A stretch of DNA of 64,000 nt, taken from the sequence record PZ166176.1. The stretch is one strand, 5' to 3'. Position numbers and translations under genes: made by a program. The stretch's first letter is position 1. Each line of letters starts with the position of its first letter. Below the pieces are notes generated by a model. The model made no database searches, was not told the origin of the DNA, and worked only from the letters and a program-made list of their open reading frames with translations. Of the stretch, positions 2,511 to 13,087 are shown one piece after another. Source of the stretch: a phage.

Positions 2511-2759
2511 ATGTCTCTATTAGAAAAACACGTGTTTGAAGATGGTAACGGCAATGCAGTTTTTCTTTTCCATCCAGAAAAATACACATCTGAAAACAAT
2601 GGTACAACTTCTATTGTAATCACTAAAGATGTTAAAGTTATTGATTTCTTGGCTCTGATGCGAGAGATGGATCTTGAAATTAATACTTTTAACGCAGAAG
2701 CTTTGGTTGTTGCTCTTCTGGAAAAGAAAGATAGTGAAGAAGTAGCAGAATATGCTTAA
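2511..2759 (+). CDS. hypothetical protein (82 aa)
   Basis: ATG at 2511 preceded by AGGAGG (2501-2506); the track ORF starting at 2445 is a longer in-frame artefact. Confidence 0.55.
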   Translation: MSLLEKHVFEDGNGNAVFLFHPEKYTSENNGTTSIVITKDVKVIDFLALMREMDLEINTFNAEALVVALLEKKDSEEVAEYA

Positions 2760-2766
2760 ATAACTA

Positions 2767-2796
2767 TTGACAAACGTATCCTTCATATGTTAGGAT
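2767..2796 (+). promoter_or_regulatory. promoter-like site (actattgacaa motif: -35 TTGACA, 18-nt spacer, -10 TAGGAT) with inverted repeat GTATCCT...AGGATAC
   Basis: Consensus -35 hexamer; weak -10; the 7-bp inverted-repeat arms at 2776-2782 and 2793-2799 overlap the -10 region. Confidence 0.4.
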
Positions 2797-3005
2797 ACGT
2801 TCATCAAGTGTGGTAACAGGGTCGTTGACTTTTGTTAAGAGGGGCTTGCACTGCGGTAGTGTTAGAGACTACTTCTTCAGAGGTTAGCTACCAAAGAGGA
2901 AAAGGAATAGTCTCGGCTCAAGAACTTTTACGCTGAAAGTTGGGCTTGGTCTTAGAGAATGTAGCGGTTCTCTACAATCGTCAGCGTCTCTGTTACCACA
3001 TTTAT

Positions 3006-3080
3006 GGCCCTGTAGCTCAATGGGAGAGCTGTCGGCTCATAACCGATAGGTAGCTGGATCGAAACCAGCCAGGGCCACCA
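3006..3080 (+). tRNA. tRNA with anticodon CAT (Met, or Ile2 if lysidine-modified), CCA encoded
   Basis: Cloverleaf folded by hand: acceptor GGCCCTG/CAGGGCC, D-stem GCTC/GAGC, anticodon loop CTCATAA, T-stem GCTGG/CCAGC, discriminator A, CCA. Confidence 0.8.
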
Positions 3081-3082
3081 AC

Positions 3083-3157
3083 GTCTTTATGGTGTAATGG
3101 ATAGCACAGGAGTCTTCTAAACTCTTAGTCAAGGTTCGATTCCTTGTAAAGACACCA
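3083..3157 (+). tRNA. tRNA-Arg (anticodon TCT), CCA encoded
   Basis: Acceptor GTCTTTA/TAAAGAC, anticodon stem GGAGT/ACTCT with loop CTTCTAA, T-stem CAAGG/CCTTG with loop TTCGATT, discriminator A, CCA. Confidence 0.8.
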
Positions 3158-3353
3158 GAACATTTTAACATGAATTAGCTCAAGTGATTTGAACCCACTA
3201 CTGATCATGGTGGCAGAGAATGAGGCAAGTATGTCAGACATTATAAACAAAGGCCACGGTTATATTAGAAGACATAAATGCTCGAAGAGCACCGTTCGTT
3301 GAGAACGGGGGTTGGTGGAGTCACCATTCATGGTAAAATGTTTTAAAAAACTA

Positions 3354-3383
3354 TTGACAACTAACATTATTTTATGTTAGATT
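3354..3383 (+). promoter_or_regulatory. promoter-like site (-35 TTGACA, 18-nt spacer, -10 TAGATT) with palindrome TAACAT...ATGTTA
   Basis: Same actattgacaa motif as at 2767 and 4103; lies just upstream of tRNA-Ser. Confidence 0.4.
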
Positions 3384-3391
3384 ATAAGTAT

Positions 3392-3482
3392 GGAAGGGCA
3401 AATCGACGTGGCGACGAAAACGGTCTTGAAAACCGCCGAGCTTGAAAGAGCCTTGGGAGTTCGACTCTCCCTCCTTCCGCCA
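3392..3482 (+). tRNA. tRNA-Ser (anticodon TGA), long variable arm, CCA encoded
   Basis: Acceptor GGAAGGG/TCCTTCC, anticodon loop CTTGAAA, long variable arm, T-stem GGGAG/CTCCC with loop TTCGACT, discriminator G, CCA; the D-arm is irregular. Confidence 0.7.
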
Positions 3483-3486
3483 GATT

Positions 3487-3572
3487 GGTAGATTGGTGAA
3501 ATGGTAGCCACGACAGTTTGCTAAACTGTAGTCGGAAACGGCGTGTAGGTTCGAGTCCTACATCTACCGCCA
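3487..3572 (+). tRNA. tRNA-Ser (anticodon GCT), long variable arm, CCA encoded
   Basis: Acceptor GGTAGAT/ATCTACC, D-stem GTGA/CCAC (read as in the analysis), anticodon stem ACAGT/ACTGT with loop TTGCTAA, T-stem GTAGG/CCTAC, discriminator G, CCA. Confidence 0.8.
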
Positions 3573-3578
3573 AATTAA

Positions 3579-3664
3579 GATGAGTTGGCTGAATGGTTTA
3601 AGCGGCGGACTGTTAATCCGTGTTCGAAAGAACGATATAGGTTCAAATCCTATACTCATCGCCA
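3579..3664 (+). tRNA. atypical tRNA: serine-like body (long variable arm, discriminator G) with anticodon GTT (Asn codons), CCA encoded
   Basis: Acceptor GATGAGT/ACTCATC (perfect), anticodon stem GCGGA/TCCGT with loop CTGTTAA, variable arm hairpin GTTC-GAAA-GAAC, T-stem ATAGG/CCTAT with loop TTCAAAT, discriminator G, CCA. Isotype cannot be settled by eye. Confidence 0.55.
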
Positions 3665-3671
3665 GAATTAT

Positions 3672-3750
3672 GGACTTGTAGAGTTAAGGTAAACCCCCAG
3701 TCGCCAAGAGGCTTCTGGAATTGCAGGTATCGAATCCTGCCGAGTCCCAG
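3672..3750 (+). pseudogene. degenerate tRNA-like element (no CCA, 8-nt T-loop, no clean anticodon arm)
   Basis: Acceptor GGACTTG/CGAGTCC and T-stem GCAGG/CCTGC are recognisable, but the D and anticodon arms do not fold canonically and CCA is absent. Confidence 0.3.
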
Positions 3751-3754
3751 CTTT

Positions 3755-3829
3755 GCTCCTATAGTATAATGGCTATTACAACGGTTTTGTAATCCGTGGA
3801 TCTCTGTTCGATTCAGAGTGGGAGCACCA
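3755..3829 (+). tRNA. tRNA-Thr (anticodon TGT), CCA encoded
   Basis: Acceptor GCTCCTA/TGGGAGC, anticodon loop TTTGTAA with a U-U loop-closing mismatch, T-stem CTCTG/CAGAG with loop TTCGATT, discriminator A, CCA. Confidence 0.75.
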
Positions 3830-4102
3830 ACACAACATTAAGAGCACTGTGATTGATCGTCGTATCCTGTGCACAAGGTCTGCTCGAAAGACAGTGTTCT
3901 TAGTATTGTGTTGATCACAAAAAGAGTTACCTGAAACTTGACCGGAGTAGGGTTGGATGGGGCAAAAGAAGAAGCGGCTCTCCCATCGACAGCAACGAAG
4001 AATAATATTTGACTTTGGTTTTGTATTATTTTAAGTTAGCTTACCGAACGTAGGGCTAGTCACCCAATGGGATACTCGTCACTGTCCCGCTCAATAAAAC
4101 TA

Positions 4103-4132
4103 TTGACAACCAATAGTAAAATGTAGTATAGT
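4103..4132 (+). promoter_or_regulatory. sigma70-like promoter (-35 TTGACA, 18-nt spacer, -10 TATAGT) with inverted repeat ACTATTG...CAATAGT
   Basis: Good match in both hexamers; lies upstream of tRNA-Gly and restarts transcription inside the tRNA region. Confidence 0.55.
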
Positions 4133-4143
4133 AAAGATGTAGG

Positions 4144-4217
4144 GCGTTCTTGGTGTAGCGGTAGCATTCCGTCCTTCCAAGTCGGCGGCACGAGTTCGAT
4201 CCTCGTAGAACGCTCCA
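4144..4217 (+). tRNA. tRNA-Gly (anticodon TCC), CCA encoded
   Basis: Acceptor GCGTTCT/AGAACGC (perfect), anticodon loop CTTCCAA, T-stem ACGAG/CTCGT with loop TTCGATC, discriminator T, CCA. Confidence 0.75.
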
Positions 4218-4315
4218 AATTATTTAATAAAGGGTTGCCAGAAAACTTTCTCTTTTACTCATGGTTTTCTCCTTCTCTCACACCTCTTCTGGTTGCCCTT
4301 CATTAAATGATTTAT

Positions 4316-4391
4316 TGGTTTGTAGTGTAGTCCGGTAGCACACGACACTTTGACTGTCGTAGGTTTGGTTCAAATCCAGACAGACCAGCCA
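4316..4391 (+). tRNA. tRNA-Gln (anticodon TTG), CCA encoded
   Basis: Acceptor TGGTTTG/CAGACCA, D-stem GTGT/ACAC region, anticodon stem CGACA/TGTCG with loop CTTTGAC, T-stem TTTGG/CCAGA with loop TTCAAAT, discriminator G, CCA. Confidence 0.75.
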
Positions 4392-4396
4392 TATAA

Positions 4397-4473
4397 CGGA
4401 ATTTAGCTCAGTTTGGTAGAGCATACGCTTTGGGAGCGTAGGGTCGCAGGTTCGAATCCTGCAATTCCGACCA
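4397..4473 (+). tRNA. tRNA-Pro (anticodon TGG), CCA encoded
   Basis: Acceptor CGGAATT/AATTCCG (perfect), anticodon stem TACGC/GCGTA with loop TTTGGGA, T-stem GCAGG/CCTGC with loop TTCGAAT, discriminator A, CCA. Confidence 0.85.
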
Positions 4474-4479
4474 ATCAAA

Positions 4480-4553
4480 TGTTTCGTAGTTCAATGGTAG
4501 AACCCACGACTGATAATCGTGAGACACAAGTTCGATTCTTGTCGAAACAACCA
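4480..4553 (+). tRNA. tRNA-Ile (anticodon GAT), CCA encoded
   Basis: Acceptor TGTTTCG/CGAAACA, D-stem GTTC/GAAC, anticodon stem CACGA/TCGTG with loop CTGATAA, T-stem ACAAG/CTTGT with loop TTCGATT, discriminator A, CCA. Confidence 0.85.
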
Positions 4554-4555
4554 GT

Positions 4556-4625
4556 TTCCCGTTAGACTTACAGGATAAGAGTTCCACAGCTTATTGTGAT
4601 GTTGGTTCGAATCCAGCACGGGATA
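4556..4625 (+). pseudogene. degenerate tRNA-like element (no CCA, irregular anticodon arm)
   Basis: T-arm GTTGG-TTCGAAT-CCAGC and an acceptor pairing with a 1:72 mismatch are present, but the anticodon region gives only a 4-bp stem with a 6-nt loop and ACA replaces CCA. Confidence 0.3.
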
Positions 4626-4631
4626 CATAAT

Positions 4632-4710
4632 AGCGGGATAGAGGAGTCTGGTCGTCCTCGCCAGTTTCATATGCTGGAGATCATCGGTTCAAATCCGATT
4701 CCCGCCTCCA
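4632..4710 (+). tRNA. tRNA with anticodon CAT and an A1:C72 mismatch (second Met/Ile2-type tRNA), CCA encoded
   Basis: Acceptor AGCGGGA/TCCCGCC, D-stem GAGG/CCTC with an 11-nt loop, anticodon stem CCAGT/GCTGG with loop TTCATAT, T-stem ATCGG/CCGAT with loop TTCAAAT, discriminator T, CCA. Confidence 0.65.
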
Positions 4711-10530: not shown

Positions 10531-11646
10531 GTGGCAAATACATATTTAACTAACGTAGACTTTTCTGGAAAAGCTACGGAAGAGTCACTAGGTGCTCATA
10601 TTGCTTACACTTTTGATTTTCAAGGTGGAGCGGCATCTGGTTATAATACCCCCCTTTTATTTAAGTCAGACGGATCTCCAGACATAACTTTTGAAAAGTT
10701 AGAAGCTCTCACTAAAATGGGAGAAGATGTTACAGAGTTACGTAAAAGCTATATTCAACAAGTGATGGATCGCATTTCTGAAAAAGTGCGTGAAAAATTT
10801 GAAGCTGGTTGGGATTGGGTTTACGTTATTGATGCTGACTTCGATGCGAACGTTGCAATTTTCTGTTCAGATAACGGTATGTTCTCTGTTGGCTTTAAAG
10901 TTGACGGACTGAATGTTGAAGTTGAAGAGGTTGCTAAACCTGTTGTTCGTGTTACTGATTATCAAGTTGTTGATGGTGATGTAATGATCTCCATTGATTT
11001 CTTTGAGGACGTTTTAGACGATGCTTTGAGTAATCTCGTTAAGAGTTCCTTGAAACAAAGTCAAGTTAAAGATTATTTAGTGAAAGCTCACGCTAAAGCT
11101 AATACAAACTCTGTGGATGCAGAGGCTAACCCCGCAGGTGATAAATCTGCAAACACAACTGGAATCAATAAAGGAGAAACCCCTTTGGAAAATATCAACA
11201 AAGAAGAATTCCTGAAATCTGCTGAATTCCAAGAACTGATGAAAGCACAGATCGCTGAAGCTGTAGAAAAAGCAGCCGCAGATGCACGTGCAGCCGCAGA
11301 ACTTGAAGCACAGGAAAAAATCGCTAAGGCAGAACAGGAAGCAGAAGAACTTCGTAAAGCTGAACAAGCTCGTATCGAAGAAGAATATACAACTGTTGTT
11401 AAATCCTATTCTTTCGTAGAAGAAGACAAAGTTGAAGCTCTCGTTAAATATCTGGTAGACAATAAAGATATCGCTGAAACTATCGTCAAAGCATTCGAAA
11501 AAGCACGTGCAGAAGTGGACGCAGTTAAGAAAGAATTTGGAACAGAACGTGGTGTTGACGTGATCAATACTCAACCTGTAGCTAAATCTTCTTCTGAACT
11601 GATTAGTCAGAAAGCTGCTGAACTTAAAAAAGCCCAGAAACAATAA
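10531..11646 (+). CDS. putative scaffolding / head core protein (371 aa)
   Basis: GTG start; C-terminal half is Ala/Glu/Lys-rich coiled coil (EAEELRKAEQARIEEE); lies just upstream of the decoration and capsid genes. Confidence 0.45.
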   Translation: MANTYLTNVDFSGKATEESLGAHIAYTFDFQGGAASGYNTPLLFKSDGSPDITFEKLEALTKMGEDVTELRKSYIQQVMDRISEKVREKFEAGWDWVYVIDADFDANVAIFCSDNGMFSVGFKVDGLNVEVEEVAKPVVRVTDYQVVDGDVMISIDFFEDVLDDALSNLVKSSLKQSQVKDYLVKAHAKANTNSVDAEANPAGDKSANTTGINKGETPLENINKEEFLKSAEFQELMKAQIAEAVEKAAADARAAAELEAQEKIAKAEQEAEELRKAEQARIEEEYTTVVKSYSFVEEDKVEALVKYLVDNKDIAETIVKAFEKARAEVDAVKKEFGTERGVDVINTQPVAKSSSELISQKAAELKKAQKQ

Positions 11647-11665
11647 TCTTAGGAGATTAAATTAA

Positions 11666-12064
11666 ATGGCTAAAGGAATTACTTTATCTAACTCTCGCCA
11701 GGAATTCGGACACCTGGTTCTGGGTGGAGTGTTTAGCTCTGACCTTGGACACTGTGTACGTGAAGTTAACCTGGTTAAAACAGCAACCATGAAAATTGGT
11801 TCTATCCTGAAAGCTGACAACACTGAAGCTGCTAAAGCTGAAGCTGCCGATGCTGCTAAAGTTCTGATTTGGACTGATGCTCTGTTCGGTATTGACGATG
11901 TAGCAGTAGGTGACACTTTCACCGCAGTTGTTGGCGTACGTGATCTTACTCTGAACCGCTTTGCAGTATACTACAAAGATGGCTCCCTGGTAGATGACGC
12001 TGGCGTAGCAGCACTGGAAACACATGATCTGAAACTGACCGAAAAAGTCGTTTTCACTTCTTAA
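11666..12064 (+). CDS. putative head decoration protein (132 aa)
   Basis: Small gene directly upstream of the major capsid gene; codon usage typical of highly expressed genes (CTG, CGT, GGT). Confidence 0.45.
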   Translation: MAKGITLSNSRQEFGHLVLGGVFSSDLGHCVREVNLVKTATMKIGSILKADNTEAAKAEAADAAKVLIWTDALFGIDDVAVGDTFTAVVGVRDLTLNRFAVYYKDGSLVDDAGVAALETHDLKLTEKVVFTS

Positions 12065-12085
12065 TTTTAATAGGAGATTAATATA

Positions 12086-13087
12086 ATGCCAGCAGTAATT
12101 TTAGATCAGGTTGTAGATTTCAGCCCTATGATCGAACTTCAGGATTCCCCTGATACACTGATTGCCAGCCTGAATCTGTTCAGTGTTGACTATCATTCAA
12201 CTACCGCTATTGAAATCGGTAAAGAAAAAGCTGAAGATGCTCTGATCTCCGCTCGTGAGCGTGGTGGTGAGCGTAACTTCCTGAGCATGAAAAATCCAGA
12301 ACTGAAAGCGTTCCGCATTCCGTTCTTCCCTCTGGATAAAAACATCAAAGCTCAAGATATCCAATCTTTCCGTAGCTTTGCAATGGCAGGAATCAATGAC
12401 TCTCTGCGCACAGACGCTGAAGTTGTTAACCGCTATATGTCCCAGATTCTACGTGACGTAGCAAAAACCAAAGAGAAAATCTTTGCAGAAGCAGTTATGG
12501 GTCGTGCCTATAACGGCGTAGGTGGTGCAGCTAACTCTGCATACAACTGGTATACCGAATGGGGTGCTACCCAGAAATCTGTTGCTGTAGACTTTGCTTC
12601 TACCACTATTTCTCCAGCAGCCACTATCGAGAAAGAAGCTCGTGCTTACATCATCGATACTAAACAAGATGGCTCTACCGCTACTCGTATCGTAGCTCTG
12701 TGTTCTCGTGAATTTTTCGCATCTCTGGTTAACTCTCCATTTGTTCGCCAGGCGTATCAGTATTTCCAGGGAACTCCTAACCTTCTGCGTGACCGCCTTA
12801 GCGGTAACATGGATGTTCAGGTGTTCGAATGGAACGGTGTAACTTACATTGAAGATATCCACGGTAACATCCCTGCTGGTGAAGCATATGTTCTGCCTAT
12901 GGGTATCGAAGGTATGTTCCAGGCGCACTACGCTCCTGCGGATACTCCAGAACTGGCTAACACCCAGGCTCGTGAACTGTATACCTTCATGATCAGCCAG
13001 CACCGCACTATTCAGCTTCAGTCTGAATTCTCGCTGCTCGCAGTTAACACCCGTCCAGAACTGGTAGTTAAACTGACTACGGCTTAA
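12086..13087 (+). CDS. major capsid protein (333 aa; lambda gpE-like family suggested)
   Basis: Size, position after the decoration gene, strong RBS (AGGAGATTAATATA ATG), high-expression codon usage, and a strong terminator downstream. Confidence 0.7.
   Translation: MPAVILDQVVDFSPMIELQDSPDTLIASLNLFSVDYHSTTAIEIGKEKAEDALISARERGGERNFLSMKNPELKAFRIPFFPLDKNIKAQDIQSFRSFAMAGINDSLRTDAEVVNRYMSQILRDVAKTKEKIFAEAVMGRAYNGVGGAANSAYNWYTEWGATQKSVAVDFASTTISPAATIEKEARAYIIDTKQDGSTATRIVALCSREFFASLVNSPFVRQAYQYFQGTPNLLRDRLSGNMDVQVFEWNGVTYIEDIHGNIPAGEAYVLPMGIEGMFQAHYAPADTPELANTQARELYTFMISQHRTIQLQSEFSLLAVNTRPELVVKLTTA

What the first reader, a model, noticed from the sequence alone, without database searches (positions are those of the whole stretch)
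3158..3391. Unexplained 230-nt spacer between tRNA-Arg and tRNA-Ser with hairpins and long-range pairing
This spacer lacks a tRNA fold on either strand but contains a perfect hairpin CCGTTC-GTTGA-GAACGG and long-range complementarity (CATGAAT at 3178-3184 with ATTCATG at 3325-3331). The track ORF 3382-3573 on the minus strand overlaps tRNAs and is not credible. A structured RNA or a decayed tRNA is possible.
Basis: seen in the sequence. Interest (0 to 1): 0.35.

Follow-up and report, generated by a model that had tools for sequence, protein, structure and literature searches.

The report
tRNA-derived structured RNA in phage tRNA array
The "spacer" is a conserved, about 186-base structured RNA gene that evolved from a tRNA (its 5' half from tRNA-Ile), followed by a promoter-like site for the next tRNAs; no RNA library holds it and its function is unknown.

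Summary
The window is a phAPEC8-like coliphage (Phapecoctavirus). The 234-nt spacer has two parts.

(1) Element B, 3158-3343 (+), is closed by an 18-bp stem and holds four inner helices.
- It is near-identical in most Phapecoctavirus records, about 81% identical in phiWec-type phages and about 70% in Seunavirus.
- It always lies on the tRNA strand inside tRNA arrays.
- Over 13 distinct sequences, 98% of pair cells form pairs, against 38-50% in slid controls. Fifteen pairs show compensatory changes, against 2-3.
- No ORF is conserved, and there is no Rfam hit at E<=10.
- Its 5' half is a recognisable tRNA-Ile(GAU) D/anticodon region. The anticodon-type loop CUGAUCA never varies. A37->C makes UGAUCA a palindrome.
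- Its 3' half is collinear with a tRNA from the D-stem 3' strand to the T stem, and the T loop is cut to 4 nt.
- The acceptor end is sealed and no free CCA end is encoded.

(2) 3354-3383 is a sigma-70 promoter-like site placed just before tRNA-Ser(UGA) at 3392-3482.

Best reading: a stable tRNA-like small RNA released from the tRNA operon. It is a positional analogue of T4 RNAC/RNAD but not a homologue. Acting as a mimic of the tRNA-Ile anticodon arm is inference only.

The parts
2767..2796 (+). Context: sigma-70 promoter-like site (TTGACA-18-TAGGAT with TG) predicted to drive the unit element A, tRNA-Met/Ile2(CAU), tRNA-Arg(UCU), element B
   Evidence: Consensus scan, 10 of 12 matches. It shares the motif AACTATTGACAA with the sites at 3354 and 4103. 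Function was not tested.
3083..3157 (+). Context: tRNA-Arg(UCU) with encoded CCA; it ends 1 nt before element B
   Evidence: ARAGORN and Rfam (66.3 bits)
3158..3343 (+). Element B: conserved tRNA-derived structured RNA of about 186 nt with five helices, P1 to P5
   Evidence: The covariance model scores 197.8 bits here and finds a single copy in the window. Homologues score 184-229 bits in Phapecoctavirus and Seunavirus. 98.3% of pair cells are paired and 15 pairs have compensatory changes.
3158..3175 (+). P1 5' strand. The inner 7 nt, CAUGAAU (3169-3175), occupy the acceptor-stem position. The outer 10 nt extend the stem.
   Evidence: Inverted repeat I1. Helices 1 and 2 are 100% paired, with 4 pairs changed on both sides.
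3176..3224 (+). J1/2 (UAG) plus P2, a long irregular hairpin: CUCA/UGAG (3179-3182/3221-3224), UUUG/CAGA (3188-3191/3214-3217) and an apical anticodon-type arm. The stretch 3176-3213 is homologous to U8 through the anticodon arm of tRNA-Ile(GAU).
   Evidence: RNAalifold consensus. Local alignment to the phage's own and to E. coli tRNA-Ile(GAU) scores 38-39 against 25-27 for the best other tRNA (z 5.1).
3195..3213 (+). Anticodon-type arm: 6-bp stem CCACUA/UGGUGG and an invariant 7-nt loop CUGAUCA (3201-3207). This reads C32 U33 G34 A35 U36 C37 A38, and UGAUCA is a palindrome.
   Evidence: 4 of 6 stem pairs change on both sides while the loop is invariant in 13 distinct sequences. Palindrome I11.
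3225..3281 (+). P3: a variable domain. GCA/UGC (3225-3227/3279-3281) encloses a hairpin at 3242-3246/3260-3264.
   Evidence: Only 47-51% sequence identity between clades, yet 5 of its 8 pairs show compensatory changes.
3282..3313 (+). J3/4 (UCGAA) plus P4. The core hairpin is CCGUUC-GUUGA-GAACGG (3292-3308), with a flanking GAGC that matches a tRNA D-stem 3' strand. P4 sits where a tRNA anticodon arm would be.
Evidence: Compensatory changes are C-G to U-A in GAP31-type and G-C to U-A in SSE121. In the Seunavirus copies UAGAGCGC and GAGGUCGGUGG are 15 nt apart, the same spacing as in E. coli tRNA-Ile (read from the sequences).
3314..3325 (+). P5: GGUG-GAGU-CACC, invariant; a remnant T arm with a 4-nt loop
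   Evidence: Invariant in all 13 sequences. It aligns with the GGUGG UUCAAGU CCAC T arm of tRNA-Ile, with 4 loop bases missing.
3326..3343 (+). P1 3' strand (AUUCAUGGUAAAAUGUUU)
3344..3391 (+). A/T-rich linker and sigma-70 promoter-like site: -35 TTGACA at 3354-3359, TG at 3375-3376, -10 TAGATT at 3378-3383. The predicted start lies 1-3 nt before the next tRNA.
   Evidence: Consensus scan, 10 of 12 matches with TG. The stretch is conserved at about 83% in Justusliebigvirus, which lacks element B. Function was not tested.
3392..3482 (+). Context: tRNA-Ser(UGA), first gene of the next unit
   Evidence: tRNAscan annotation in ASO2A, ARAGORN in phiWec188, and a sub-threshold Rfam tRNA-Sec hit here

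Best explanation
3158-3343 is a self-contained gene for a structured, tRNA-derived small RNA (element B). 3344-3391 is the promoter region of the next tRNA unit.

B descends from tRNA sequence. Its 5' half is a tRNA-Ile(GAU) D/anticodon region. Its 3' half runs from a D-stem 3' strand through a second anticodon-position hairpin (P4) and a variable loop to a shrunken T arm. The D-loop GG and the 7-nt T loop that form the tRNA elbow are lost. The acceptor end is sealed into an 18-bp stem and no free CCA end is encoded.

Proposed working (inferred): B is transcribed with tRNA-Met/Ile2 and tRNA-Arg from the promoter-like site at 2767-2796. Its ends are set by the nucleases that mature its neighbours: 3' trimming of the upstream tRNA, RNase P at the downstream tRNA in Seunavirus, and possibly RNase III in P1. 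P1 then protects it as a stable RNA of about 170-190 nt.

It would act in trans through its invariant anticodon-type hairpin. That hairpin shows a tRNA-Ile-like bottom half that cannot be charged and, per the cited t6A rule, should not be t6A-modified. It would serve as a mimic or decoy for a factor that reads that half, such as an anticodon nuclease, or as a pairing or dimerisation loop.

My probabilities: structured functional RNA about 0.8; tRNA origin about 0.8; stable trans-acting RNA about 0.55; decoy or pairing mechanism about 0.15-0.2.
For: Conservation:
- Near-identical in 65 Phapecoctavirus records, about 81% in phiWec-type and about 70% in Seunavirus.
- The Seunavirus match spans exactly 3162-3344, which is the stem-closed unit.

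Structure:
- 98.3% of 650 pair cells are paired, against 38-50% with partners slid.
- 15 pairs have changes on both sides, against 2-3 in the slid controls; 0 of 500 shuffles reach the observed values.
- 68 of the 650 cells are G-U pairs, which would be A-C on the other strand, so the folded strand is the tRNA strand.

Selection:
- The core domains are 94-95% identical between phAPEC8-type and phiWec-type phages, like the flanking tRNAs (95-100%).
- P3 is only 51% identical but still pairs.
- Loops and junctions are invariant.

tRNA origin:
- The window's 5' half scores 38-39 against tRNA-Ile(GAU), against 25-27 for any other of 143 tRNAs (z 5.1, 0 of 200 shuffles).
- The Seunavirus 3' half is tRNA-like (z 4.3).
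- UAGAGCGC and GAGGUCGGUGG have the same 15-nt spacing as in E. coli tRNA-Ile (read from the sequences).

Position:
- B sits 1-2 nt after a tRNA or tRNA-like CCA end. In Seunavirus it sits 2 nt before tRNA-Leu(UAA), so it occupies a tRNA slot although the neighbours differ.

Exclusions:
- No conserved ORF and no Rfam hit at E<=10 or E<=1.

Precedent and context:
- T4 encodes the stable RNAs RNAD and RNAC directly after its tRNA-Arg. Their roles are unknown (PMC3014915, PMC9697503).
- Anticodon nucleases can recognise only the D and anticodon arms, as studied on tRNA-Ile(GAU) (PMC11724271).
- Phage tRNA-Ile(GAU) genes in related genera carry C33 or other loop changes. This fits pressure on that loop (concept: PMC10264068).
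Against: - No expression data exist. Transcription, processing and stability are all inferred.
- The promoter sites are consensus matches only, and their count in the region equals the shuffled expectation (6 found, 5.6 expected).
- Sequence diversity is thin: 13 distinct sequences in three clades. Several helices never vary (P2 base, P5) and are therefore untested.
- A tRNA-like D stem (GCUC with GAAC) is only 71% paired. Alternative partners for GCUC (UGAG at 3221, GAGC at 3287) cannot be told apart.
- Isotype assignment of the 3' half is not unique; tRNA-Pro scores as well as tRNA-Ile.
- The window's 3' half and the Seunavirus 5' half are not individually significant against tRNAs.
- Every other long spacer in this array is also closed by a long stem. 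P1 could therefore reflect a general processing or insulation need and not an RNA gene.
- Nothing links B to any defence system or partner.
- The family is absent from sister genera that carry similar arrays, so it is dispensable for the array as such.
Confidence: 0.6

Rival explanations
1. B is a cis-acting processing, insulation or stability module of the tRNA operon. The long closing stem would be an RNase III-type site, or a fold that keeps spacer RNA from interfering with tRNA folding and protects transcript ends. The excised RNA itself would have no role.
For: - Every long spacer of the array is closed by a long stem: A at 2806-3003 (z -5.8), C1 at 3830-3911 (about 20 bp), D at 4218-4312 (about 24 bp, z -5.7).
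- B abuts tRNA ends within 1-2 nt.
- In the window B ends a predicted transcription unit and is followed by UUUU.
Against: - A stem alone does not need an invariant 7-nt loop, invariant junctions and a 12-nt invariant hairpin kept across two genera.
- The inner core domains are 94-96% identical within the genus and 71-86% across genera. P1 is less conserved (89% and 64%), although its pairing is kept by compensation.
- The other stem-closed spacers are not detectably conserved outside Phapecoctavirus, whereas B is.
- B keeps its own P1 while its neighbours differ completely between genera.
- In Seunavirus B sits 2 nt upstream of tRNA-Leu, so it cannot be an efficient terminator there.
- The scan found no terminator-like site on the + strand in 3158-3391.
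Confidence: 0.2
2. B is a non-functional remnant: one or two tRNA pseudogenes decaying in the array.
For: - It has clear tRNA ancestry but no detectable tRNA fold.
- The array holds other tRNA-like remnants, at 3672-3749 and 4554-4631.
- Arrays gain and lose units quickly, for example the tRNA-Tyr unit missing from this window.
- Sister genera lack B.
Against: - Compensatory changes keep 15 pairs.
- Core identity equals that of working tRNAs, while P3 drifts freely.
- B persists in two subfamilies that share no other long spacer tested.
- The derived features (C37, the 4-nt T loop, extended P1) are fixed in every member.
Confidence: 0.07
3. The region encodes a small protein: the 37-aa ORF at 3189-3302, of which the ATG-started 32 codons are annotated as a hypothetical protein in phage WPEC4.
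For: An ORF is present in phAPEC8-type genomes and is annotated in WPEC4 and related records.
Against: - In phiWec-type phages indels change the reading frame and the ORF becomes an unrelated 25-aa product.
- In Seunavirus the only ORFs are in another frame with unrelated sequence.
- Conservation falls in blocks that ignore codon position, and substitutions are pairwise compensatory.
Confidence: 0.02
4. B is a DNA-level element: a small mobile element with terminal inverted repeats, a cruciform or origin-type site, or a homing-endonuclease target.
For: - It has 17-bp terminal inverted repeats.
- tRNA arrays of related phages carry endonuclease insertions (an HNH gene in Hena1; an ORF inserted next to B in SSE121 and PVP-SE1).
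- Both strands fold about equally well in silico.
Against: - There is one copy per genome and none elsewhere in the window.
- There are none in E. coli genomes and no match in the one-scan motif search of other cellular genomes.
- 68 of 650 pair cells are G-U and pair only on the tRNA strand.
- The interior is tRNA-derived and collinear with tRNA.
Confidence: 0.03

Closest known systems
Phage T4 stable RNAs RNAC (species 1, 139 nt) and RNAD (species 2, 119 nt) of the T4 tRNA cluster
   Same: - They are small non-coding RNAs encoded on the tRNA strand inside a phage tRNA cluster.
- They lie directly after tRNA-Arg, as B lies directly after tRNA-Arg(UCU) here.
- RNAC carries a tRNA-type T arm.
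- Their biological role is unknown (PMC3014915, PMC9697503).
   Different: - No sequence or structure homology. The B covariance model finds nothing in the T4 region even with filters off.
- Local alignment of RNAC and RNAD to B is at chance level (z about 2 and below 0).
- B has a sealed 18-bp terminal stem, an intact anticodon-type arm and a truncated T loop.
- The annotated T4 RNAD ends in CACC and is followed by A in the genome, giving an encoded CACCA.
- Accumulation of B as a stable RNA has not been shown.
tRNA-Ile(GAU), both host E. coli and the phage's own copy at 4480-4553
   Same: - The 5' half of B keeps U8, A9, GCUC, a D-loop start, GAAC, C26 and the anticodon arm with C32 U33 G34 A35 U36. 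A38. That is 30 of 35 aligned bases identical to the phage tRNA-Ile.
- In Seunavirus B the 3' half keeps UAGAGCGC and GAGGUCGGUGG at the tRNA spacing.
   Different: - It is not a tRNA: no ARAGORN or Rfam call.
- The D-loop GG is lost, the T loop is 4 nt, the D stem is degraded (71% paired), and A37 has become C.
- About 70 nt of extra RNA (P3) and a second anticodon-position hairpin lie between the halves.
- The acceptor is extended to 18 bp, with no encoded discriminator or CCA.
ROOL and GOLLD RNAs
   Same: They are structured RNAs of unknown function encoded by phages and prophages, often near tRNA islands. They assemble through kissing loops (PMC12286853). B also lies in a phage tRNA island and has a palindromic apical loop that could make a loop-loop dimer.
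   Different: - They are far larger than B (many GOLLD members exceed 800 nt; ROOL residues are numbered beyond 460) and have unrelated folds.
- Rfam release 15 returned no match of any kind in this region.
- Oligomerisation of B is only a possibility read from the loop sequence.
tRNA-mimic domains of other small RNAs (tmRNA tRNA-like domain; bacterial Y RNA YrlA)
   Same: The 5' and 3' ends pair into an acceptor-like stem, and part of the molecule copies tRNA.
   Different: - By my own knowledge, those RNAs copy the acceptor/T-arm/elbow half of tRNA. B keeps the opposite half (D and anticodon arms) and has lost the elbow.
- ARAGORN finds no tmRNA. The only YrlA hit in the region is a chance overlap with tRNAs at 4418-4537 (22.8 bits against a cut-off of 69).

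Membership tests
tRNA (Rfam RF00005 / ARAGORN) | Detected as a cloverleaf by tRNA-specific models | tested here: not met
   ARAGORN makes no call in 3158-3391 on either strand. Rfam has no tRNA-clan hit there even at E<=10, nor in the phiWec181 or GAP31 copies at E<=1.
tRNA (Rfam RF00005 / ARAGORN) | 7-nt anticodon loop with U33 on a 5-bp or longer stem | tested here: met
   The loop CUGAUCA is invariant, and 4 of the 6 stem pairs covary. Position 37 is C, where tRNA-Ile has A.
tRNA (Rfam RF00005 / ARAGORN) | Elbow elements: G18 G19 in the D loop and a 7-nt T loop on a 5-bp stem | tested here: not met
   The D-loop equivalent reads AAGUGAUUU or AGAUUAUUU, with no GG at the aligned positions. 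The T-arm equivalent is GGUG-GAGU-CACC, a 4-nt loop.
tRNA (Rfam RF00005 / ARAGORN) | 7-bp acceptor stem with a free discriminator and CCA 3' end | tested here: not met
   The acceptor-position pairs continue into an 18-bp stem, and no CCA follows the 3' strand.
T4-type tRNA-cluster stable RNAs (RNAC/RNAD) | Encoded on the tRNA strand within a phage tRNA cluster, next to tRNA genes | tested here: met
   B starts 1 nt after tRNA-Arg(UCU). In Seunavirus it lies between a tRNA-like gene and tRNA-Leu with 2-nt linkers. For the T4 layout.
T4-type tRNA-cluster stable RNAs (RNAC/RNAD) | Sequence or structure homology to RNAC or RNAD | tested here: not met
   The covariance-model search of the T4 tRNA region with filters off gives nothing above chance. 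Pairwise local alignments are at shuffle level.
T4-type tRNA-cluster stable RNAs (RNAC/RNAD) | Accumulates as a discrete stable RNA processed from the tRNA precursor | not testable with these tools
   No transcript data are available. This needs a Northern blot or RNA-seq of infected cells.
Any curated RNA family (Rfam 15: 6S, tmRNA, Y RNA, RNase P, T-box, riboswitches, ribozymes, ROOL, GOLLD and others) | Match to the family covariance model | tested here: not met
   There is no hit overlapping the B structure core at the gathering threshold or at E<=10. The only overlap is a 14-bit RT-6 hit on the minus strand at 3324-3361 with E 9.6. There is none in two divergent copies.
Intrinsic (rho-independent) terminator | Short G+C-rich hairpin immediately followed by a U run on the transcribed strand | tested here: not met
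   The scan finds no + strand site in 3158-3391; the only site there is on the minus strand at 3293-3277. In Seunavirus a tRNA gene follows B after 2 nt.
Sigma-70 promoter (for 3354-3383) | -35 and -10 hexamers at 16-18 nt spacing | tested here: met
   TTGACA-18-TAGATT, 10 of 12 matches, with TG before the -10. This is a consensus match only, and the number of such sites in the region equals the shuffle expectation. Activity was not tested.
Protein-coding gene | Reading frame conserved among homologues | tested here: not met
   The ORFs differ in frame and sequence among the three clades.
Small mobile element with terminal inverted repeats | Multiple dispersed copies | tested here: not met
   There is a single copy in the 64-kb window, one per related genome segment searched, and none in E. 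coli genomes.

The most novel reading that the evidence does not exclude
B is a phage-made anti-tRNA or tRNA decoy. It shows a tRNA-Ile(GAU) anticodon arm on a scaffold that cannot be charged, has no tRNA elbow and has a sealed end.

The single fixed A37->C change has three consequences. By the published 36-UAA-38 rule it should block t6A modification. It makes the loop the palindrome UGAUCA. It also makes the loop complementary to U33-G34-A35-U36 of host tRNA-Ile.

B could therefore do one of three things:
- soak up or inhibit a host nuclease that reads the bottom half of tRNA-Ile;
- pair with host tRNA-Ile itself;
- self-associate through a kissing loop.

The unusual C33 loops of tRNA-Ile(GAU) genes in related phages would belong to the same conflict.
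Probability: 0.12. Interest if true: 0.75.

Novelty: new variant of a known kind. Interest (0 to 1): 0.5.

Why it matters
Phage tRNA arrays are now read as counter-measures to host nucleases that cut tRNAs. The non-tRNA RNAs that sit in these arrays are still unexplained: T4 RNAC/RNAD for fifty years, ROOL and GOLLD more recently.

Element B is a compact case that can be worked on.
- It is about 186 nt, lies in easily grown coliphages and Salmonella/Cronobacter phages, and has a fold supported by covariation.
- It has a clear origin from tRNA, its 5' half from tRNA-Ile(GAU).
- One fixed base change in an otherwise tRNA-Ile anticodon loop offers an obvious mutational handle.

If it proves to be a decoy or a pairing partner for tRNA-Ile, it would be an RNA-level anti-defence or translation-control device made by remodelling a tRNA. 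If it proves to be only a processing module, it would still show how these long arrays are cut into units.

It also corrects annotation. Several GenBank records call a 32-aa protein here, and most leave the region blank.

Tried and rejected
- **Rfam.** I searched at gathering and at permissive thresholds on the window and on two divergent copies. Nothing overlaps the B structure core.
- **Protein coding.** Rejected, because the reading frame is not conserved.
- **T4 RNAC/RNAD homology.** Rejected by a covariance-model search with filters off and by pairwise alignment.
- **Wider homologues.**
  - Four motif scans of IMG/VR return the same four contigs.
  - A 14-mer scan gave only chance hits.
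  - One metagenome scan found 4 true members, all close to known clades.
  - One scan of 185,579 cellular genomes found no member.
  - E. coli genomes gave no match.
  - tRNA arrays of Justusliebigvirus VEcB, Vequintavirinae A7_1, Henunavirus Hena1 and Certrevirus CR9 hold none.
- **Salmonella phage 19.** Its copy scores only 57 bits, but the record is unverified and full of indels, so I did not use it.
- **tRNA-style D stem for the 5' half.** It is 71% paired and one pair never forms, so it is not better than the RNAalifold pairing.
- **Extra helices or pseudoknots.** A scan of all column pairs found only invariant candidates: loop ACUGAUC with GGUYGGU, AUUAG with CUGAU, and GCUC with GAGC. 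None can be confirmed.
- **Strand choice by folding energy.** Not informative (z -4.2 against -4.5). G-U pairs in the alignment decide it.
- **Retron-like, T-box-like, 6S-like and RNase P-like readings.** I considered these from memory and dropped them. I saw no reverse transcriptase annotated in the 36 kb around the array in ASO2A, there are no Rfam matches, and the architecture differs.
- **Literature.** Searches for this RNA, or for transcript data on Phapecoctavirus, found nothing.
Full report
**Context.** The window is a phAPEC8-like myovirus (genus Phapecoctavirus, Stephanstirmvirinae). Positions 2700-4400 match dozens of such genomes at 99%. In the annotated relative ASO2A the region is the tRNA array that lies between leftward DNA-metabolism genes and the rightward terminase and head genes. 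ARAGORN and Rfam find ten tRNAs on the + strand at 3006-4710.

**Checking the observation.** The spacer is real.
- tRNA-Arg(UCU) ends at 3157, and no tRNA model matches 3158-3391 on either strand.
ARAGORN misses it here, and Rfam scores it only as a sub-threshold tRNA-Sec (37.4 bits). tRNAscan calls it in ASO2A, and ARAGORN calls it in phiWec188.
- The hairpin CCGTTC-GTTGA-GAACGG is at 3292-3308, as stated.
- CATGAAT is at 3169-3175, not 3178-3184. ATTCATG is at 3326-3332.
- The interval folds better than every one of 200 dinucleotide shuffles (z -4.1). So does 3158-3343 alone (z -4.2).

**The spacer has two parts.**
- Bases 3158-3343 form a unit closed by that 18-bp stem. I call it element B.
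- Bases 3344-3391 are A/T-rich and hold a sigma-70 promoter-like site, TTGACA-18-TAGATT, with TG before the -10 (3354-3383). Its predicted start falls 1-3 nt before tRNA-Ser(UGA).
- Two more sites share the motif AACTATTGACAA, at 2767-2796 and 4103-4132. Each lies a few bases upstream of a structural RNA (element A at 2806; tRNA-Gly at 4144).
- The array therefore looks like three transcription units, with B as the last gene of the first unit.
- These are consensus matches only. The scan finds no more sites than in shuffled sequence (6 against 5.6).

**Element B is a conserved structured RNA.**
- BLAST finds the 251-nt query at 95% identity or more in 65 Phapecoctavirus records and at about 81% in phiWec-type members of the genus. 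It is about 70% identical in Seunavirus (PVP-SE1, GAP31, SSE121, 4MG, Cronobacter and Enterobacter phages; subfamily Vequintavirinae).
- The Seunavirus match covers window 3162-3344, which is exactly the stem-closed unit.
- RNAalifold on eight sequences predicts five helices.
- A covariance model built from them scores 184-229 bits on every family member and finds a single copy in the window.
- On 13 distinct sequences, 98.3% of 650 pair cells form standard pairs, against 38-50% when partners are slid by 1-3 columns. Fifteen pairs change on both sides, against 2-3 in the slid controls. No shuffle in 500 reaches the observed values.
- P1, the apical part of P2, P3 and P4 all carry compensatory changes. 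The base of P2 and all of P5 never vary, so they are untested.
- Sixty-eight pair cells are G-U. These pair only on the + strand, so the folded strand is the tRNA strand. Folding energy cannot tell the strands apart.

**B is under selection and does not code for protein.**
- Between phAPEC8-type and phiWec-type phages, J1/2+P2 is 94% identical and J3/4+P4+P5 is 95.5% identical. That matches the flanking tRNAs (95-100%).
- The P3 domain is 51% identical yet still forms its hairpin.
- The 37-aa ORF at 3189-3302 is annotated from its ATG as a 32-aa protein in WPEC4. It is not conserved. Indels give an unrelated 25-aa ORF in phiWec181, and the Seunavirus ORFs are in another frame.

**B is derived from tRNA.**
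- After the inner 7 bp of P1, the sequence reads UA GCUC AAGUGAUUU GAAC C CACUA CUGAUCA UGGUG.
- The phage's own tRNA-Ile(GAU) at 4480-4553 reads UA GUUC AAUGGUA GAAC C CACGA CUGAUAA UCGUG.
- Against 143 tRNAs (142 from these phages plus E. coli tRNA-Ile, whose sequence I verified), the window's 5' half scores 38-39 with tRNA-Ile(GAU) and at most 27 with any other tRNA (z 5.1; 0 of 200 shuffles).
- The 3' half of the Seunavirus copies reads GUAGAGCGC CGUUCGCGGAGAACG GAGGUCGGUGG AGUC ACC. It is tRNA-like (z 4.3) and collinear with E. coli tRNA-Ile, UUAGAGCGC ACCCCUGAUAAGGGU GAGGUCGGUGG UUCAAGUCCAC. The same 15 nt separate the two conserved blocks.
- P4 therefore sits at an anticodon-arm position, and P5 is a T arm that has lost four loop bases.
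- The isotype of the 3' half is not unique, because a tRNA-Pro scores as well.
- The window's 3' half and the Seunavirus 5' half are too diverged to be significant alone. They are tied to the other clade's halves by the family alignment.
- The simplest history is a fusion or internal duplication of tRNA sequence in which the inner junction became the free-drifting P3 domain. This step is inference.
- Features that make a tRNA work are gone: the D-loop GG, the 7-nt T loop and a free CCA end. A tRNA-style D stem is only 71% paired.
- What remains intact and invariant is the anticodon-type arm with loop C32 U33 G34 A35 U36 C37 A38. The single difference from tRNA-Ile, A37 to C, is fixed in all members and turns U33-A38 into the palindrome UGAUCA.

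**Distribution.**
- The family is narrow. Beyond the GenBank records there are four IMG/VR contigs and four metagenome contigs, all close to the known clades.
- There are none in E. coli genomes, and the one motif scan of 185,579 cellular genomes found no member.
- The tRNA arrays of Justusliebigvirus (same subfamily as the window), an unclassified Vequintavirinae phage, Henunavirus, Certrevirus and T4 hold none.
- Its neighbours differ between the two genera. In Phapecoctavirus the order is tRNA-Arg(UCU), B, promoter-like site, tRNA-Ser. In Seunavirus B follows an odd tRNA-like gene and precedes tRNA-Leu(UAA).
- In both genera B sits 1-2 nt after an encoded CCA end. In Seunavirus it sits 2 nt before the next tRNA. 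It therefore behaves as a portable, self-contained gene occupying a tRNA slot.

**How it most likely works.**
- Shown: a conserved fold on the tRNA strand, tRNA ancestry, single copy, a tRNA-slot position, and no coding capacity.
- Inferred, step 1: B is co-transcribed with the tRNAs.
- Inferred, step 2: its ends come from the enzymes that mature its neighbours. RNase III may cut the 18-bp P1, as it cuts the long stems that flank rRNAs (my own knowledge).
- Inferred, step 3: P1 shields the ends, so B accumulates, like T4 RNAC and RNAD. Those lie directly after T4 tRNA-Arg and still have no known role (PMC3014915; PMC9697503).
- Most speculative step: B acts through its anticodon-type hairpin.
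  - C37 removes the 36-UAA-38 signal required for t6A (abstract of PMC13276492).
  - The loop is self-complementary, and its A35-U36-C37-A38 is complementary to U33-G34-A35-U36 of tRNA-Ile(GAU).
  - At least one E. coli anticodon nuclease binds only the D and anticodon arms and was characterised on tRNA-Ile(GAU), cutting between C32 and U33 (PMC11724271).
  - The tRNA-Ile(GAU) genes of related phages carry C33 or other odd loops. This fits the published idea that phage tRNAs change their anticodon loops to escape such nucleases (PMC10264068).
- A decoy, an anti-tRNA or a dimerising RNA are therefore all plausible, and none is tested.

**Rivals.**
- The strongest rival is that B is only a processing or insulation module. 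Every long spacer in the array is closed by a 20-24-bp stem. Against it, B alone is conserved across genera, and its loops and junctions are invariant. Its core sequence is also better conserved than its closing stem.
- A dead pseudogene, a small protein gene and a DNA-level element are each contradicted by specific tests.

**Comparison with known systems and novelty.**
- B works like, and is placed like, the T4 tRNA-cluster stable RNAs, but it fails the homology test for that family.
- It is derived from tRNA but fails four of five tRNA membership features.
- It shares the phage tRNA-island setting of ROOL and GOLLD but not their size or fold (PMC12286853).
- No Rfam family matches it, and no paper I could search describes it.
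- I rate it a new variant of a known kind: tRNA-like small RNAs of phage tRNA clusters.
- It is of moderate interest. The object is solidly real and easy to test, but its function is open.

Noticed in passing
window 3392-3482 (+): tRNA-Ser(UGA) is missed by ARAGORN in this window and falls below Rfam's gathering score (it scores as tRNA-Sec, 37.4 bits). tRNAscan calls it in ASO2A and ARAGORN calls it in phiWec188.
   Followed up: partly
window 2806-3003 (+): Element A is a second unannotated structured RNA candidate, lying between the first promoter-like site and tRNA-Met/Ile2(CAU). It has a ~22-bp closing stem and folds at z -5.8. Eight pairs show compensatory changes between the window and phiWec181. 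It has no Rfam hit and no tRNA similarity, and BLAST finds it only in Phapecoctavirus.
   Followed up: partly
window 3830-3911 and 4218-4312 (+): Two more spacers in the array are closed by long stems (about 20 bp and about 24 bp; z -5.7 for the second). Long closing stems look like a general feature of the non-tRNA spacers here, possibly RNase III-type processing sites.
   Followed up: no
window 3672-3749 and 4554-4631 (+): Two tRNA-like remnants with recognisable T arms and acceptor pairing are not called by ARAGORN or Rfam. Their local similarity to tRNAs is z about 3.7 and 2.9.
   Followed up: no
window 3579-3664 (+); L136 4722-4803: The gene called tRNA-Asn(GUU) is 86 nt long with a long variable arm, a class II shape that is unusual for Asn, and has discriminator G. 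The same form is conserved in Justusliebigvirus VEcB next to tRNA-Tyr. One paper reports that class II tRNAs resist an anticodon nuclease (PMC11724271).
   Followed up: partly
window 3572-3579, compared with L001 2374-2597: This window lacks a block of about 219 bp (a spacer plus tRNA-Tyr(GUA)) that ASO2A, WPEC4 and other close relatives carry between tRNA-Ser(GCU) and tRNA-Asn. ASO2A also has about 90 extra bases between tRNA-Gln and tRNA-Pro.
   Followed up: no
L136 6579-6654; L137 2533-2609; L141 2228-2304; L143 1276-1350; L164 1618-1694; L165 4951-5026; L006 222-297; L008 109-184: tRNA-Ile(GAU) genes of five related genera have C instead of the near-universal U at position 33 (loops CC-GAU-AA or UC-GAU-AA). 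PVP-SE1 and SSE121 have AA-GAU-UC. Only the window's copy (4480-4553) has the canonical CU-GAU-AA.
   Followed up: partly
L007 (Cronobacter phage GAP31) 484-594: An unannotated tRNA-like gene lies directly upstream of element B in Seunavirus. It has a 7-bp acceptor, a D arm, the loop CAUCCAG (A at position 33), a ~38-nt variable arm, the T loop UUAGAUU and an encoded CCA. Rfam gives only a weak tRNA-Sec hit (23.7 bits).
   Followed up: no
L006 (PVP-SE1) 786-1271; L008 (SSE121) 490-972: In PVP-SE1 and SSE121 about 480 nt are inserted between element B and tRNA-Leu(UAA); in SSE121 the insert includes a 164-aa ORF. The first bases of the tRNA are repeated right after B. This looks like an endonuclease-type insertion.
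   Followed up: no
L158 (ASO2A) 11048-12533, about 5 kb upstream of the array and outside the window: An Rnl1-type RNA ligase and a metallophosphatase are adjacent on the opposite strand. Together they could form a tRNA-repair pair, which fits a phage under attack by tRNA nucleases.
   Followed up: no
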